Made by a program: the position numbers and the translations under genes. Below, piece after piece: positions 8,749-13,108 of a stretch of DNA of 24,000 bases (positions are counted from its first letter, which is position 1; each line of letters opens with the position of its first letter). The stretch spans positions 1 through 24,000 of the forward strand of contig CAYZCS010000007.1 in the NCBI GenBank assembly GCA_964476895.1. Reading direction: 5' to 3'. The notes beneath the pieces are model-generated. The model did no database searches and was not told the origin of the DNA. It saw nothing but the letters and a program-made list of their open reading frames with translations. This DNA comes from an uncultured Candidatus Saccharibacteria bacterium (lineage in GTDB: Bacteria > Patescibacteriota > SICC01).

Positions 8749-8908
8749 GCATTCAGTGTACGTGATGGTTGACTTTTCGCATGGTTAATAGGAATATACC
8801 TAGTCGCACTTTTCCATACAGGGAGGTTCCCGGCGACAAGGCAATCGGAATGCTTTGTCCCCGGGAATCTCACAGGGAGAGCTCCGTGGAGAAAAAGGAG
8901 AAGATCGC

Positions 8909-9901
8909 ATGCGCCACGAGTATGGGTACAGACGGATTTCGACCAGACGGGTCATCGGTTGGATCGGTCTGGGTATCGGGCTGATCCTGTTGATCCTCCT
9001 GCTGTTCGCGTGGCCGTTTAAGAAGGCGCCCGCCGATCAGTGGGCGGTCAGCTACGGCGGCGGCCCGTTCGAGAGCCAGCACTACCAGGGCACGTTCGAG
9101 CCCGGCTCAAACCTCCGGTTCAACGGGTGGTTCGACAAGTGGTTCGAGTATCCGGCGACGCTTCGTTCCTACATCGTCTCGAAGCAAGGCGGTGAGGGCG
9201 ATGTGCCGGGCAGCGACTCGATCCGCGCCACCACCAAGGACCAGGTGGAGGTGGAGTTCGAGATCACCACGAACTTCAAGCTCAACACCAACCTGCTCCG
9301 GAAGTTCCATGAGCAGTTGGGGCTGAAGTTCGAGGCCTGGGAGGACGATGGCTGGAACAAGATGCTTCGGGACTCGTTCCGGCAGCAGCTTGAGAACAGC
9401 CTGCAGTCCATCGTGCGCGAGTTCGACGTCGCCGAGGTCTGGGCCAGTGAGCGAGCGCTCGAGGAGATCCAGGATCGGCTCGGAGTCGAGCTCAATGAGA
9501 AGATCACGTCGCAGCTCGGGGACGAGTACTTCTGCGGACCGACTTTCCAGCACGGGCGAGCGGTCCAGGTACCGGTCAAGGAGCAGGTCGACGGCGAGAT
9601 CGTCACAAGGATGGAGCGAACGGATTGTCCGCCGCTCCAAGTAAAGATCAAGCGTCCGACCATCCCGCAGAAGGTGAAGCGTGCCTTCGAGGCTAACCGG
9701 ACCTCCGAGATCCTGGTGGTTACCAAGGAGAACGAGATCGAGCAGCGCCGGAAGGAGCGGGAGTCGATCAAGCAGCTCCGGAACGTGCTCTCACCGCAGT
9801 ACGTACTCCTCAGGGCCATCGAGGAGGGCAAGATCGACTTCTGGGTTCTGCCCGGGAATAACGGTCTCAACCTCCAGACCCCGACGAGAGCGGCTCCATA
9901 G
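8909..9901 (+). CDS. Membrane-anchored SPFH (band 7 / prohibitin-like) domain protein
   Basis: N-terminal TM helix followed by an SPFH-like pattern (..IRATTKDQVEVEFEITTNFKL..). The ATG at 8909 is preceded by an AAGGAG Shine-Dalgarno. The family call is by eye only. Confidence 0.55.
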   Translation: MRHEYGYRRISTRRVIGWIGLGIGLILLILLLFAWPFKKAPADQWAVSYGGGPFESQHYQGTFEPGSNLRFNGWFDKWFEYPATLRSYIVSKQGGEGDVPGSDSIRATTKDQVEVEFEITTNFKLNTNLLRKFHEQLGLKFEAWEDDGWNKMLRDSFRQQLENSLQSIVREFDVAEVWASERALEEIQDRLGVELNEKITSQLGDEYFCGPTFQHGRAVQVPVKEQVDGEIVTRMERTDCPPLQVKIKRPTIPQKVKRAFEANRTSEILVVTKENEIEQRRKERESIKQLRNVLSPQYVLLRAIEEGKIDFWVLPGNNGLNLQTPTRAAP

Positions 9902-10021
9902 CTGAGCGACACTACGGCCCCATAGTCTGGCCTCTCACGAGGTGGCCTGAAACAACAGACGCCAGGGGGATTCCGGCAGGTTAATGCGAGATATCATATC
10001 TCCATTGCCTGCCGCCCCCGA

Positions 10022-10070
10022 CCCTCTCGCATAGCGACTGATGAGACCCGGGAAGTTCGGGTCGAAAGGG
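10022..10070 (+). ncRNA. Hammerhead ribozyme-like element, copy 1 (stems I and II capped, stem III open, i.e. type III topology)
   Basis: CCCUC / UCGC-AUA-GCGA (stem I) / CUGAUGA / GACCCG-GGAAGUU-CGGGUC (stem II) / GAAA / GGG. All invariant core positions are present. The predicted cleavage site is after C10026. Confidence 0.7.
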
Positions 10071-10167
10071 AAGCACGAATGCCGCGTTGGTAGAATACGG
10101 CGCTGGTATGATGTACTTGCTCGCCGTACCTTACCGCAAACAGTCAGACCCGTCGGAAGGAATGTAC

Positions 10168-10524
10168 ATGCAACGACTCTACGACAGTGACGTCATCCGT
10201 TCGATGTCGATGTACTGTGAGGATCCGCTGGTGCGGCTCATGACGCTCGCCATGGTACTGATGGGAGTCACGGTCACGGGCATACTGGTCGCCGTGACCC
10301 CCGATGCAAGCGCCTGGGGTATCCTGGCGCTCTACGTCTTCATCGGCATGCTGATCGTCGCGCCGAAGCACCTGTGGATGCTGTTCACCTACTGCGGCAC
10401 GTTGTTCACAGGGATCATGATCGAGCCACAGGGACCGTTTGTCATGGTGCTTCTGGCGCTGCTCTGCTTTGTCCTCGCGGCATTCGCCCGGAAGCGATTG
10501 CCTGATCAGCGGACCGTCACCTGA
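10168..10524 (+). CDS. Hypothetical integral membrane protein (about 4 TM)
   Basis: Hydrophobic ORF. The ATG at 10168 is preceded by GGAAGGA. The ORF track starts it at TTG 10087, so the start is uncertain. Confidence 0.5.
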   Translation: MQRLYDSDVIRSMSMYCEDPLVRLMTLAMVLMGVTVTGILVAVTPDASAWGILALYVFIGMLIVAPKHLWMLFTYCGTLFTGIMIEPQGPFVMVLLALLCFVLAAFARKRLPDQRTVT

Positions 10525-10592
10525 ACGACCGATAACGGACCTCGAACCCGCGCGCAGTGGTCCGTGTGGCTAACCAGCCATGTCGCGGGAGC

Positions 10593-10630
10593 GGCCATCA
10601 TGTACTTTAGTATCTGGTGGCCTTTTCTTT
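10593..10630 (+). terminator. Rho-independent terminator of the 4-TM protein gene
   Basis: Stem GGCCATCA (10593-10600) with TGGTGGCC (10615-10622), including one G-U pair, followed by TTTTCTTT. Confidence 0.65.
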
Positions 10631-10642
10631 ATGGTCCGGATG

Positions 10643-10671
10643 TTGATTATTTAGCTTAACTGTAGTATAAA
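10643..10671 (+). promoter_or_regulatory. Candidate sigma70-type promoter driving hammerhead copy 2 and the metzincin gene
   Basis: TTGATT (10643-10648), a 17-nt spacer, then TATAAA (10666-10671), within an AT-rich patch of an otherwise GC-rich region. Confidence 0.5.
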
Positions 10672-10702
10672 ATCAAGCTACGGAAACACCGTGACACGGT
10701 CG

Positions 10703-10751
10703 CCGTCGCGCATAGCGCCTGATGAGACCCGGGAAGATCGGGTCGAAACGG
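10703..10751 (+). ncRNA. Hammerhead ribozyme-like element, copy 2
   Basis: CCGUC / GCGC-AUA-GCGC / CUGAUGA / GACCCG-GGAAGAU-CGGGUC / GAAA / CGG. The predicted cleavage site is after C10707. It lies about 25 nt downstream of the predicted transcription start. Confidence 0.7.
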
Positions 10752-10759
10752 TATCAACA

Positions 10760-11836
10760 ATGCATAGCGAAGCCAGTCCCAATCACGATTCGCAACCCGA
10801 GTCCACGGTCCTGGACCGCATGCGGTCATCGCGGGTCGTGAAAACCGTCTTGGGTGCCGCGTGTGCGGGCGTGCTCGCGAAATGCAGTGGTCCGTCGGCA
10901 CCACCCGAAATGAACGAAGTCCGCTCACCGCGCGCGGTATTCGAACCGCCCGTTCCGGCTGCTCCCGACCTTCCGTACGTAGCGGAGAGCCGCCCGGTCG
11001 AGTACTACGGCGGCCTGTCAGCGTATCGATCCATGAGGGTCAACAGGATCGGTCGGGAACTGTTCGAAGACGCCAGGATGGCGCGCGGATTCGAGATCGA
11101 ACGGGAGATCGAACAGTGGAACCTGGACCGGATGGGATTTCTACTGGTGCCCGCCGAGCTGCGCGGCCCCCTCGAAGCGTCCGTGGACGCGGAGCTGCGG
11201 ATGGAAGAGTTCTTTCTCAGCAAGGGCCTTCCGCAATATTCCGTGATCGATTACCTGGGCTGGCGGACGAGCGCTGAGATGATCGATGAACCTTTGCCGT
11301 TACCGGAAGTCATGCACGGGCTAAGCCAGCTGGAGCTGGACTATCTGGAAAGCCTGGACCGGGAACGTGAGGCGGCGATGCTCCAGGCGGAGATCATCGC
11401 CGAGGAGATCTACGGACCCACGCCCTTGCCTGCCGATCCGGAAAAGCGGGCTCAGATTCCCACGGTTTCCGTCCGGCTGGAGGGGTCTCCGAAGGTGGAG
11501 CGGGCGGTCAGCGAGGCGCTTGAGCGGTGGCAGGAGCGCGGCTACGACCCTCCGTGCGACGGTGACATCGAGCTCTGGGGCTCCAATCGGCTGTCTCGGC
11601 CGAAAGCGACCGCCCAGGCCCCGTTGTCGCCAAGGTTCGGAGAGCCTTGCTATATCAATTTTCGGGTTGATGAGATTATGCAGAGTTCGGAAGACCATTT
11701 GGCCAACGTTTCCGAGCATGAAATCGGCCACAACTTGGGATTCTGCCACTCGAAACAGGAAGATTCCATCATGTACAGCAAGCGCGAAGAAACAGAAGGA
11801 TGCGAGGTTCCTCACCCGAGTTGGACGGTCGAGTAA
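10760..11836 (+). CDS. Metzincin (matrixin/M10-like) zinc metalloprotease, probably secreted
   Basis: HEIGHNLGFCH matches HExxHxxGxxH, and is followed by an SIMY Met-turn. A signal-peptide-like segment is present (MRSSRVVKTVLGAACAGVLA). The start is ambiguous: ATG 10760 or ATG 10820. GTG 10691 would run through the ribozyme motif. Confidence 0.75.
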   Translation: MHSEASPNHDSQPESTVLDRMRSSRVVKTVLGAACAGVLAKCSGPSAPPEMNEVRSPRAVFEPPVPAAPDLPYVAESRPVEYYGGLSAYRSMRVNRIGRELFEDARMARGFEIEREIEQWNLDRMGFLLVPAELRGPLEASVDAELRMEEFFLSKGLPQYSVIDYLGWRTSAEMIDEPLPLPEVMHGLSQLELDYLESLDREREAAMLQAEIIAEEIYGPTPLPADPEKRAQIPTVSVRLEGSPKVERAVSEALERWQERGYDPPCDGDIELWGSNRLSRPKATAQAPLSPRFGEPCYINFRVDEIMQSSEDHLANVSEHEIGHNLGFCHSKQEDSIMYSKREETEGCEVPHPSWTVE

Positions 11837-11861
11837 GAGGTGGCAATCAGCGGACAGGGAG

Positions 11862-11907
11862 AACGGGCCGGTCTTCATCGAGGTATCGAGGAAGGGTCCG
11901 GCCCGTT
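11862..11907. terminator. Hairpin between convergent genes, possibly a bidirectional terminator
   Basis: Perfect 10-bp stem, AACGGGCCGG (11862-11871) with CCGGCCCGTT (11898-11907). The loop is large and the T-tract is only moderate (TGTAGTTAT). Confidence 0.5.
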
Positions 11908-11911
11908 GTAG

Positions 11912-12193
11912 TTATCGGTCCCGTGGGTCATAACCGTTGTCGTGGTAACGACCGATCGCGCCTCCCAGTGCATGAAAGAAAGGGATGATGTTAAGTACCG
12001 AAACCGCGACGAAAAGACCAATAATGGTGAATCCCAGAATGAACGTCAGCAAGGCGCCGATGTATGTCTCCGGGAAAGCCAGCAGCAGGAGTTCGGCCGC
12101 CGGATAGGTCGCCAGCATGGGCCCGAAGCAGTAGAGACCATTCCGGAGCACCGCACGGTACTCCGGTACGGCGAACAGCGGCAATGAGCGCAT
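11912..12193 (-). CDS. Hypothetical small membrane protein (93 aa, 2-3 TM)
   Basis: ATG preceded by AAAGGAG with 5-nt spacing. Hydrophobic composition. Confidence 0.55.
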   Translation of the reverse strand: MRSLPLFAVPEYRAVLRNGLYCFGPMLATYPAAELLLLAFPETYIGALLTFILGFTIIGLFVAVSVLNIIPFFHALGGAIGRYHDNGYDPRDR

Positions 12194-12604: not shown

Positions 12605-13108
12605 CTAATTAAGCCAGTCTAAGAAACGCTCGACATCCCGTTTTGATTTCAGGTGCACTACTTTTTCCGAATGTTTCGTAAGAAATCTTTGTGTGTTCTT
12701 CAGGCGATCGCCGGCTAGTTGGAACATCGCTTGAAAATGACCGAGGTCGTTCCACCAGTTCAGTTCCGGGTGACGATCTTTCTTGGATATTCTTTTCGCA
12801 TGTCGAATTACACGTCGCCATAGCGGGATATCCAGGAACACGATGATGTCAGCCCGCTCCGCGATCTCGGGTTGCACGCGGCGATACAATCCATCGCTGA
12901 CCCAGATCGGCTTTTTGATGAATTTCGCTACCTCGGCCTCTATCTTTCTTCGGACGCGCTCTTTCTCTTTTTCGCTTTTCGCATTGTGACCGCCCTCCGA
13001 GAACCAAATCCGGTCGATTTCCAGGCGAGGGATCCCGGCATGCCGAGCAATCCGCTTGGCGAGCGTCGTCTTCCCACTCGCGCTAAGGCCGAGGATAGAG
13101 ATCCTCAT
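12605..13108 (-). CDS. P-loop NTPase / adenylate-kinase-like protein (topology modulation FlaR-like)
   Basis: MRISILGLSASGKTTLAKRIA Walker A motif in a protein of about 167 aa. GC content is visibly lower than in the neighbouring genes. ATGA overlap with the recombinase gene. Confidence 0.75.
   Translation of the reverse strand: MRISILGLSASGKTTLAKRIARHAGIPRLEIDRIWFSEGGHNAKSEKEKERVRRKIEAEVAKFIKKPIWVSDGLYRRVQPEIAERADIIVFLDIPLWRRVIRHAKRISKKDRHPELNWWNDLGHFQAMFQLAGDRLKNTQRFLTKHSEKVVHLKSKRDVERFLDWLN

What the first reader, a model, noticed from the sequence alone, without database searches (positions are those of the whole stretch)
9964..12193. Ribozyme-led mini-locus: two self-contained transcription units plus an antisense small membrane gene
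The architecture, as read from the sequence, has three parts.
- Unit 1: nested hairpin, hammerhead 1, a 4-TM protein gene, and its terminator (10593-10630).
- Unit 2: promoter (10643-10671), hammerhead 2, a secreted metzincin gene, and a convergent hairpin (11862-11907).
- A 93-aa membrane protein gene on the opposite strand.

None of the three proteins has a housekeeping role that I can assign. No clear promoter is visible for unit 1. Hammerhead 1 may therefore separate it from a read-through transcript of the SPFH-like gene. A pair of hammerheads used as 5' processing modules for a membrane protein and an extracellular protease is not, to my knowledge, a described arrangement. The functional linkage is a hypothesis.
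Basis: inference. Interest (0 to 1): 0.6.

Follow-up and report, generated by a model that had tools for sequence, protein, structure and literature searches.

The report
Hammerhead ribozymes at gene boundaries
Two genuine self-cutting hammerhead RNAs sit in front of a small membrane-protein gene and a protease gene, but they belong to a multi-copy family that marks many unrelated gene boundaries in this ultra-small bacterium and its relatives, so they are general transcript-cutting modules and not a dedicated three-gene system.

Summary
The sequence features are real. There are two type III hammerheads, HH1 at 10021-10071 (cut after C10026) and HH2 at 10702-10752 (cut after C10707). The long hairpin, the intrinsic terminator, the promoter-like site, the three genes and the convergent hairpin are also present.

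Covariation is decisive. Across 39 diverse copies, 99.5% of cells are paired and 12 of 15 pairs show compensatory changes. Position 17 is never G in the copies inspected.

- This 0.79-Mb Patescibacteria genome has seven strong copies, next to unrelated features: purE-purC/cmk, a tRNA-Arg, a stand-alone mini-unit and a 446-aa membrane protein.
- Congeners have 1-8 copies each.
- The subtype is spread over Patescibacteria.

Copies nearly always follow a co-directional gene, often directly after a very stable hairpin. About a third face a convergent gene. After the orthologous SPFH gene, one relative has a classical terminator where this genome has hairpin plus hammerhead.

The promoter-HH2 juxtaposition is secondary, because relatives keep a gene between them.

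The most likely function is cis-cleavage that punctuates transcripts at gene boundaries. Clustered hammerheads flanking genes were described in 2011 for prophages. This scan has noted such elements in Patescibacteria on other DNA many times.

The parts
8855..9901 (+). SPFH/Band 7 membrane-anchored protein gene. It is the co-directional gene whose transcript runs into HH1.
   Evidence: Pfam PF01145, E 4.6e-13. Orthologues in G002 and G006 lie at the same place next to ychF.
9914..10019 (+). 'Class A' module upstream of HH1: a conserved segment followed by a long nested hairpin (9965-10019, closed by GGGGG...CCCCC).
   Evidence: The module is repeated upstream of the hammerheads on contigs C17 and C40, and in G001, G003, G004, G005 and G008. 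Its interior changes sequence but stays paired. Fold energy is -52 kcal/mol together with HH1.
10021..10071 (+). Hammerhead ribozyme 1 (type III). Predicted cleavage is between C10026 and U10027.
10168..10524 (+). Small membrane protein gene, 118 aa. It has no family match.
   Evidence: The start is set by the G004 orthologue (MQRIYDSD...) and an SD-like GGAAGGA. There are no Pfam or PHROG hits. It is found only in G000 and G004. dN/dS is 0.50.
10593..10631 (+). Intrinsic terminator (hairpin plus U-run) ending unit 1.
   Evidence: Fold. Conserved in G004.
10643..10671 (+). Sigma-70-like promoter, TTGATT-17-TATAAA.
   Evidence: Read from the sequence. Homologous promoters occur in G004 (TTGATA-17-TATAAA) and G006 (TTGAAA-17-TATAAA), where they drive a gene that is missing here. 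The scan tool did not call it.
10702..10752 (+). Hammerhead ribozyme 2 (type III). Predicted cleavage is between C10707 and G10708.
   Evidence: Rfam RF00008, 33.9 bits, E 7e-5. Own model, 85.6 bits. An orthologous copy lies in G004 after a 279-aa gene and a strong hairpin.
10760..11836 (+). Orphan metzincin-like metalloprotease gene (358 aa from ATG 10760). Alternative starts are 10820 and 10910. A signal-peptide-like segment follows M21.
   Evidence: PF00413, 31.8 bits, over residues 309-342 only. Weak MMP matches in PDB. Only two relatives were found among 5.8 billion proteins. dN/dS is 0.19.
11862..11907 (.). Stable hairpin between the convergent metzincin and 93-aa genes.
   Evidence: -31 kcal/mol, z -3.9.
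11912..12193 (-). 93-aa two-TM protein gene. It is conserved in the genus independently of the ribozyme-flanked genes.
   Evidence: Orthologues in G001, G004 and G005 at 51-57% identity. dN/dS is 0.39.

Best explanation
HH1 and HH2 are two members of a family of compact type III hammerhead ribozymes. The family has a 4-bp stem I with an NUA triloop and a 6-bp stem II with a GGAAGNU loop. Patescibacteria carry it in their chromosomes at gene boundaries.

Each copy is transcribed as part of the message of the gene upstream and cuts itself out of that message in cis.
- The upstream RNA is left ending in a 2',3'-cyclic phosphate, often just after a very stable hairpin.
- The downstream RNA starts with a 5'-OH and the folded ribozyme.

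In this window:
- HH1 would separate the SPFH message, which would end at hairpin 9965-10019, from the 4-TM message. The 4-TM gene has no promoter of its own and ends at the terminator 10593-10631.
- HH2 would trim about 30 nt from the transcript that starts at the 10643-10671 promoter. In relatives it lies between a cold-shock-like gene and the metzincin, so its place right behind the promoter is a by-product of gene loss.

The three proteins are fast-evolving accessory genes of a hypervariable interval between ychF and xerC. They are not a ribozyme-dependent system.

Shown here: the motifs, their covariation, their copy number, their contexts and the synteny.
Inferred: cleavage in vivo and its effect on RNA stability and expression.
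For: Structure:
- The core is intact, and A15.1-U16.1 and G10.1-C11.1 are invariant in both alignments. H17 is C, U or A in the 31 copies printed.
- 98.7% of cells are paired in 31 copies, with 11 of 15 pairs compensatory.
- 99.5% of cells are paired in 39 more diverse copies, with 12 of 15 pairs compensatory. In both sets 0 of 500 shuffles reach the observed value.

A generic element:
- There are 7 strong copies in 0.79 Mb.
- 5 of 6 congeners have copies, as do a second family of the order and one more distant genome.
- A pattern scan of 185,579 species genomes returned 37 stretches, nearly all Patescibacteria.

Contexts in this genome:
- purE-purC to cmk.
- 446-aa membrane protein, then the ribozyme, facing a convergent cmk-like gene.
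- 29 nt upstream of tRNA-Arg.
- Promoter, leader, ribozyme, terminator as a stand-alone unit.

Position:
- The upstream gene is co-directional in 23 of the 25 copies where one could be called. It usually ends 46-140 nt before the ribozyme.
- Among copies with a called downstream gene, it is co-directional in 15 and convergent in 10.

Hairpin:
- 15 of 49 copies have an upstream 60-nt fold in the lowest 5% of local windows, against about 2.5 expected.
- The class A hairpin keeps its pairing while its interior sequence changes.

Natural swap after the orthologous SPFH gene:
- G000 and G002 have hairpin plus hammerhead.
- G006 has an intrinsic terminator.

Precedent: clustered hammerheads flanking genes cleave polycistronic RNAs in vitro (PMC3088659).
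Against: - No transcript data could be obtained.
- Rfam's curated threshold is not reached.
- The upstream hairpin is missing from many copies, HH2 included.
- A terminator and a promoter lie between the two hammerheads, so they are probably not on one polycistronic RNA here.
- In the predicted primary transcript of HH2, the minimum-energy fold pairs the leader ACGG with the CCGU strand of stem III and not with the ribozyme's own strand. HH2 may therefore cleave poorly.
- Decayed copies at the same locus in G005 show that a copy can be lost. That is also what a dispensable repeat would show.
Confidence: 0.7

Rival explanations
1. The two hammerheads are dedicated 5' processing modules of a functional three-gene unit (4-TM protein, secreted metzincin, antisense 93-aa membrane protein).
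For: - The order HH1, 4-TM..., HH2, metzincin, then the convergent 92/93-aa gene is kept in G004. G004 is the only other genome with the metzincin and 4-TM genes.
- HH2 and the first codons of the metzincin are almost identical in both genomes.
Against: - G000 and G004 are close relatives (ychF 93% identical), so shared order may simply be shared ancestry.
- The same ribozyme flanks unrelated genes.
- G004 has two more genes between the hammerheads.
- At the orthologous site upstream of the 4-TM gene, the module is class A here and class B in G004.
- The 93-aa gene is present in G001 and G005 without the other two genes.
- An AUG at a fixed distance is not a family feature. In HH1 it opens only a 4-codon frame.
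Confidence: 0.08
2. The hammerhead modules are selfish or neutral intergenic repeats that spread and decay, with little or no benefit to the host. Cleavage would be incidental.
For: - Class A modules are near-identical at three loci of this genome. Contigs C40, G001:C33 and G001:C55 end 71-86 nt upstream of such a copy.
- The module class differs at an orthologous site.
- Decayed copies are present in G005.
- Copy number among congeners ranges from 1 to 8; none was found in G006, which is 66% complete.
Against: - Orthologous copies persist across genera and families with compensatory changes and an intact core. Examples are purE-purC/cmk in four genomes, and the 446-aa protein's copy in G000, G005, G008 and one further MAG labelled Iamiaceae.
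- Orientation relative to the upstream gene is strongly biased.
- No target-site duplications or mobility genes were seen, and there are no phage-like neighbours.
Confidence: 0.15
3. The modules act mainly as terminator substitutes. Cleavage after the hairpin ends the useful transcript, and the 5'-OH downstream RNA is discarded. Read-through into the next or a convergent gene is thus silenced, not converted into a stable downstream message.
For: - About a third of copies face a convergent gene, so there is nothing downstream to process.
- G006 has an intrinsic terminator exactly where G000 and G002 have hairpin plus hammerhead.
- One copy is followed directly by a terminator.
Against: - The 4-TM gene here and in G004 has no promoter of its own after HH1, and so needs the read-through RNA.
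- cmk after purE-purC is a housekeeping gene 75 nt downstream of a copy.
- A tRNA lies 29 nt downstream of another copy.
Confidence: 0.2
4. The 681-nt segment between the two cleavage sites is released with 5'-OH and cyclic-phosphate ends and joined into a circular RNA that encodes the 4-TM protein.
For: - Two same-strand hammerheads bracket one small gene.
- A similar pair, 713 nt apart, brackets a 144-aa small multi-TM gene in another Saccharibacteria MAG.
- Perreault et al. raised circular products as a possibility.
Against: - An intrinsic terminator and a promoter lie between the 4-TM gene and HH2.
- No RtcB ligase was found in the 90%-complete genome.
- Perreault et al. looked for such products and found none.
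Confidence: 0.03

Closest known systems
Type III hammerhead ribozymes (Rfam RF00008, clan CL00010)
   Same: - The catalytic core is identical (CUGAYGA ... GAAA).
- A15.1-U16.1 and G10.1-C11.1 are present, and position 17 is not G.
- The topology is three helices with stem III open and loops closing stems I and II.
- HH2 aligns end to end to the Rfam model.
   Different: - Scores fall below Rfam's gathering threshold (33.9 against 48.5 bits), and HH1 is not listed. Routine annotation would therefore miss them.
- The family is very compact: a 4-bp stem I with a triloop, and strongly conserved loop sequences (NUA and GGAAGNU).
- The subtype was found almost only in Patescibacteria.
Clustered hammerheads flanking single genes or short gene blocks in bacterial prophages (Perreault et al. 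2011, PMC3088659)
   Same: - Several same-strand hammerheads lie in intergenic gaps and bracket individual genes whose identity is not constant.
- The proposed role is the same: cutting long transcripts into gene-length RNAs.
   Different: - The setting here is chromosomal and not phage-like. There are no PHROG hits, and the neighbours include purE-purC, cmk, a tRNA and ychF.
- Copies are often coupled to a stable upstream hairpin.
- Some copies face convergent genes or stand alone between a promoter and a terminator.
Selective RNA processing and stabilisation of operon transcripts by RNases and 3' stem-loops (for example PMC4423207, PMC8219983; abstracts seen)
   Same: An intergenic cut next to a stable stem-loop would give neighbouring cistrons independent RNA ends and stabilities.
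   Different: - The cut would be made by the RNA itself, not by RNase E or RNase Y.
- This is a comparison of how it may work. Nothing about stability was measured here.
RiboJ-type synthetic ribozyme insulators (my own recollection, not checked here)
   Same: A hammerhead just downstream of a promoter removes the variable 5' leader, as HH2 would in this window.
   Different: - RiboJ is an engineered part.
- The promoter-HH2 adjacency here arose by loss of the gene that separates them in G004 and G006.

Membership tests
Hammerhead ribozyme, type III | Conserved core C3-U4-G5-A6-N7-G8-A9 and G12-A13-A14 | tested here: met
   CUGAUGA at 10038-10044 and 10719-10725. GAAA at 10064-10067 and 10745-10748. 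The core is CUGAYGA...GAAA in all but one of the 31 copies printed from the genus and its relatives (L034 reads GGAA).
Hammerhead ribozyme, type III | Three helices around the core, with A15.1-U16.1 and a pair at 10.1-11.1 | tested here: met
   The minimum-energy folds are three-way junctions. 98.7% and 99.5% of cells are paired, and 11 and 12 of 15 pairs show compensatory changes. U-A and G-C at these two positions never vary.
Hammerhead ribozyme, type III | Cleavage-site nucleotide 17 is A, C or U | tested here: met
   C in HH1 and HH2. C, U or A in the copies inspected, never G.
Hammerhead ribozyme, type III | Type III topology (stem III open, stems I and II capped by loops) | tested here: met
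Hammerhead ribozyme, type III | Score at or above Rfam's gathering threshold for RF00008 | tested here: not met
   HH2 scores 33.9 bits against 48.5. HH1 is not reported at E up to 10. This is a curated cut-off, not a structural requirement. The Rfam model also gave sub-threshold matches at E<=10 in 7 of 14 control genomes.
Hammerhead ribozyme, type III | Self-cleavage activity | not testable with these tools
   This needs in vitro transcription or RNA end mapping.
Prophage-type clustered hammerheads (Perreault 2011) | Several hammerheads close together, flanking single genes | tested here: met
   HH1 and HH2 lie 681 nt apart on one strand around the 4-TM gene. G004 has pairs 1.8 and 2.1 kb apart.
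Prophage-type clustered hammerheads (Perreault 2011) | Prophage or integrase context | tested here: not met
   The flanked genes have no PHROG matches; the upstream SPFH gene matches phrog_200 (lipoprotein) and the 167-aa kinase-like gene matches generic ATPase/kinase PHROGs. The nearby tyrosine recombinase was found next to ychF in 7 of the 9 class genomes (not found in the stretches fetched for G001 and G008), so it looks like a resident XerC/D-type gene.
Metzincin metalloprotease (M10-like) | Zinc-binding motif HEXXHXXGXXH followed by a Met-turn | tested here: met
   HEIGHNLGFCH at residues 320-330 and SIMY at 336-339. Both are conserved in G004.
Metzincin metalloprotease (M10-like) | Pfam PF00413 above its curated cut-off | tested here: met
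   31.8 bits against 24, but only profile positions 103-136 of 159 are aligned.
Metzincin metalloprotease (M10-like) | Complete catalytic-domain fold | tested here: inconclusive
   The AlphaFold model from a two-sequence alignment has a mean pLDDT of 34.9 and is unusable. PDB sequence matches to MMP catalytic domains are weak (E 0.05).
Intrinsic terminator | G+C-rich hairpin followed by a U-run | tested here: met
   10593-10631, -16.9 to -20.4 kcal/mol, followed by UUUUCUUU. Conserved in G004.

The most novel reading that the evidence does not exclude
Hairpin-plus-hammerhead modules may be a lineage-wide, protein-independent way of setting mRNA ends in Patescibacteria. They would be interchangeable with intrinsic terminators and placed preferentially after small multi-pass membrane-protein genes. 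One possible purpose is to free downstream RNA from a message that is being translated at the membrane. That would give a general biological role to bacterial hammerheads, whose function is still open.
Probability: 0.3. Interest if true: 0.7.

Novelty: new member of a known kind. Interest (0 to 1): 0.4.

Why it matters
The biological role of bacterial hammerhead ribozymes remains largely unknown. This genome offers a compact natural test set of seven copies in 0.79 Mb, in four distinct settings:
- gene-hairpin-ribozyme-gene;
- facing a convergent gene;
- just upstream of a tRNA;
- as a stand-alone promoter-to-terminator unit.

It also offers a natural replacement of the module by a classical terminator after an orthologous gene. 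If cleavage is confirmed, these small genomes would be shown to use self-cleaving RNA to define transcript ends; RNase E/G was not found here.

For annotation, the subtype falls below Rfam's threshold and is therefore missed in Patescibacteria genomes. The specific idea of a ribozyme-driven protease and membrane-protein system is not supported.

Tried and rejected
- **Rfam at gathering threshold.** Only a tRNA was found. At E up to 10, only HH2 was found. Nothing in Rfam matches the class A hairpin module.
- **AlphaFold model of the metzincin.** Mean pLDDT was 34.9. No fold search was attempted on it.
- **Phage origin.** The flanked genes have no PHROG matches; the upstream SPFH gene matches phrog_200 (lipoprotein) and the 167-aa gene matches generic ATPase/kinase PHROGs, none of which indicates a prophage. 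Rejected.
- **Integron-like cassette array next to the tyrosine recombinase.** Rejected. The recombinase was found beside ychF in 7 of the 9 class genomes, the variable genes point towards it and not away from it, and other genes lie in between.
- **Circular RNA route.** No RtcB was found, and a terminator and promoter lie between the sites. Kept only as a low-probability rival.
Both copies do have an ATG 12 nt after GAAA. In HH1 it opens a 4-codon frame out of register with the 4-TM gene, and other family copies lack it. Rejected as a family feature.
- **Own promoter for the 4-TM gene.** TTGGTA/TATGAT at 10087-10112 has a 14-nt spacer and is not credible.
- **Universal upstream hairpin.** Not met. 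Only about a third of copies stand out.
- **Homology among the small membrane proteins upstream of hammerheads in other Patescibacteria.** BLASTP found none.
Full report
**What is there**

The window is contig C7 of a 0.79-Mb, 63% G+C genome in 50 contigs, 90% complete. It belongs to Patescibacteria. NCBI titles of congeners read Candidatus Saccharibacteria or Saccharimonadia, or "Patescibacteria group" (matched through contig lengths). In the genome collection held here its class has only nine species genomes.

At the stated coordinates I find, on the + strand:
- the SPFH/Band 7 gene (8855-9901);
- a conserved segment and a long nested hairpin (9914-10019);
- hammerhead 1 (10021-10071);
- a small membrane-protein gene, whose start at 10168 is set by its G004 orthologue;
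- an intrinsic terminator (10593-10631);
- a TTGATT-17-TATAAA promoter (10643-10671);
- hammerhead 2 (10702-10752);
- a metzincin-like gene (10760-11836);
- a strong hairpin (11862-11907).

On the - strand lies a 93-aa two-TM gene (11912-12193).

**Are the hammerheads real?**

Both carry the full core: CUGAUGA, GAAA, A15.1-U16.1, G10.1-C11.1 and C at position 17. Taken alone, each has a three-way junction as its minimum-energy fold. They differ from each other by compensatory changes in stems I and III.

Rfam's type III model aligns HH2 end to end, but at 33.9 bits, below the gathering score of 48.5. It does not list HH1.

A covariance model built from four genomic copies found 7 strong copies in this genome. 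It found 1-8 copies in five of six congeners, 2 in a second family of the order and 3 in one more distant genome. It found none in the 52 other genomes of the phylum that were sampled.

| Alignment | Copies | Cells paired | Pairs with compensatory changes | Shuffles reaching observed |
|---|---|---|---|---|
| | 31 | 98.7% | 11 of 15 | 0 of 500 |
| | 39, more diverse | 99.5% | 12 of 15 | 0 of 500 |

Slid controls pair only 25-46% of cells. The two pairs that the hammerhead consensus requires never vary, and position 17 is C, U or A. I regard the identification as secure. Self-cleavage itself could not be tested.

**Are they tied to these genes?**

They are not. The other copies of this genome lie in unrelated settings:
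- between a purE-purC fusion and cmk;
- after a 446-aa membrane protein, facing a convergent cmk-like gene;
- 29 nt upstream of tRNA-Arg(GCG);
- in a stand-alone unit of promoter, leader, ribozyme and terminator.

An upstream gene could be called for 25 of the 31 copies from the genus and near relatives. It is co-directional in 23 of them and usually ends 46-140 nt before the ribozyme. A downstream gene was called for 25 copies and is co-directional in 15 and convergent in 10.

A pattern scan of one genome per prokaryotic species returned 37 stretches with this subtype (loop I NUA, loop II GGAAGNU). Nearly all come from Patescibacteria: Saccharibacteria, CPR3, WWE3 and Dojkabacteria.

The metzincin and the 4-TM gene exist only in G000 and its close relative G004. 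The metzincin has just these two representatives among 5.8 billion proteins. The 93-aa gene is found in G001 and G005 without either of them.

**The locus in evolution**

The interval between ychF and the resident tyrosine recombinase is hypervariable across the nine genomes. Its G+C content is lower than in the flanking core genes.

| Genome | Gene order after ychF |
|---|---|
| G006 | SPFH, intrinsic terminator, promoter, a 181-aa gene |
| G002 | SPFH, hairpin, hammerhead |
| G004 | two other genes, class B module plus HH1, 4-TM, a 105-aa membrane gene, terminator, the same promoter, a 279-aa homologue of the G006 gene, hairpin, HH2, metzincin |
| G000 (this window) | lacks the 105-aa and 279-aa genes, so the promoter abuts HH2 |

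These orders rest. Three conclusions follow:
- The promoter-ribozyme arrangement of "unit 2" is secondary.
- The module upstream of the 4-TM gene is class A here but class B in G004.
- G005 carries two decayed copies at this locus.

**The hairpin**

Many copies are preceded, within 2-6 nt of stem III, by a very stable hairpin. The class A hairpin keeps GGGG(G)/CCCC(C) and CCGGCA/UGCCG at its base. Its interior changes sequence and length but stays paired. Hairpin and HH1 coexist in the minimum-energy fold.

The feature is enriched but not universal. 15 of 49 copies fall in the lowest 5% of local windows, and HH2 lacks it.

**How it most likely works**

Cleavage in cis at gene boundaries would leave an upstream RNA ending in a hairpin and a cyclic phosphate. 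The downstream RNA would begin with a 5'-OH and the folded ribozyme.

Three observations fit a role in defining transcript ends:
- the orientation bias relative to the upstream gene;
- the copies that face convergent genes;
- the replacement by a terminator in G006.

Other cases argue that the downstream product is often used: the promoterless 4-TM gene, cmk, and the tRNA. I cannot decide between "processing into stable messages" and "terminator substitute" without RNA data.

RNase E/G and RtcB were not found in this genome, while RNase Y is present.

For HH2, the predicted primary transcript favours a fold in which the leader pairs with the 5' strand of stem III. HH2 may therefore cleave less efficiently.

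**The proteins**

- The metzincin has the HEXXHXXGXXH motif and a Met-turn, and passes Pfam's M10 cut-off on a 34-residue stretch. PDB matches are weak.
- Structure prediction for the metzincin failed (pLDDT 35). Export is inferred from a signal-like segment after M21. The record annotation of G004 starts later and lacks that segment.
- The 4-TM and 93-aa proteins have no family matches.
- dN/dS against G004 is 0.19 for the metzincin, 0.50 for the 4-TM gene and 0.39 for the 93-aa gene. For ychF it is 0.15. The three are therefore real but fast-evolving genes.

**Comparison with what is known**

Perreault et al. 2011 (PMC3088659) described multiple hammerheads flanking single genes or short blocks in prophages. 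They showed cleavage of the polycistronic RNAs in vitro and proposed processing into gene-length messages.

The present case shares that layout in a new phylum and a non-phage chromosomal setting, with frequent coupling to a hairpin. Full-text searches for hammerhead together with Patescibacteria, candidate phyla radiation or Saccharibacteria found no relevant paper.

This scan has already noted hammerheads at gene boundaries in Patescibacteria. 58 notes in at least 50 genomes hold all five search words; the eight shown describe such elements. My results agree with those notes independently.

**Verdict**

- This is a new member of a known kind, with moderate interest that lies mainly in the comparative evidence about function.

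Noticed in passing
G000:C25:3398-3458 (L013 1432-1590): This is a stand-alone mini-unit, conserved in G005 and G002. It consists of a promoter (CTTGACA-17-TACTAT), a leader of about 45 nt, a hammerhead, and an intrinsic terminator directly after stem III. The leader begins with a near-copy of the ribozyme's own substrate strand (CUUACGUCCUGC against CUUACGUACUGC). In G002 this is an exact tandem duplicate, so one catalytic core may have two alternative cleavage sites.
   Followed up: partly
G000:C16:8064-8124 (L011 1501-1663): A hairpin plus hammerhead lies 29 nt upstream of tRNA-Arg(GCG). The ribozyme would cut the tRNA precursor away from the upstream transcript.
   Followed up: partly
L086 2150-2420 (-), G006: After the orthologous SPFH gene, G006 has a classical intrinsic terminator and a promoter homologous to window 10643-10671. 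G000 and G002 have hairpin plus hammerhead at that place. This is a natural swap of the two element types.
   Followed up: yes
L084 1162-1216 and 1916-1976, G005: Two decayed hammerhead copies lie at the same ychF-proximal locus. One reads CCGACGAG...GGUUGAAA. The other reads UCGACGAG and has stem II mismatches.
   Followed up: partly
L056 2012-2785 (Saccharibacteria MAG CullarsAll.DT.34): Two hammerheads 713 nt apart bracket a 144-aa small multi-TM gene (3 segments by the crude count) of higher G+C content than its surroundings. The gene before the first hammerhead is also a small 3-TM protein. In lower-GC Patescibacteria loci, the co-directional upstream gene has two or more TM segments in 9 of 17 cases, against 15 of 177 other ORFs. 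This rests on a crude hydrophobicity predictor, and the copies are not independent.
   Followed up: partly
window 12605-13108 (-): A 167-aa P-loop kinase-like gene with about 50% G+C and a low codon score lies between the tRNA-binding-domain gene and the recombinase. It has no counterpart at this place in the relatives examined, so it is probably a recent acquisition.
   Followed up: no
G000:C40 and G001:C33, C55 (L012, L022, L028): These contigs end 71-86 nt upstream of a class A hammerhead copy. The repeated module therefore probably breaks the assemblies.
   Followed up: no
G000:C4 and C17 (L001, L004): Both cytidylate-kinase paralogues of the genome lie next to a hammerhead. One is downstream on the same strand and the other is convergent. 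This may be coincidence.
   Followed up: no
window 10678-10765: In the predicted primary transcript of HH2, the minimum-energy fold pairs the leader ACGG (10680-10683) with the CCGU strand of stem III. This competes with the active ribozyme fold.
   Followed up: partly
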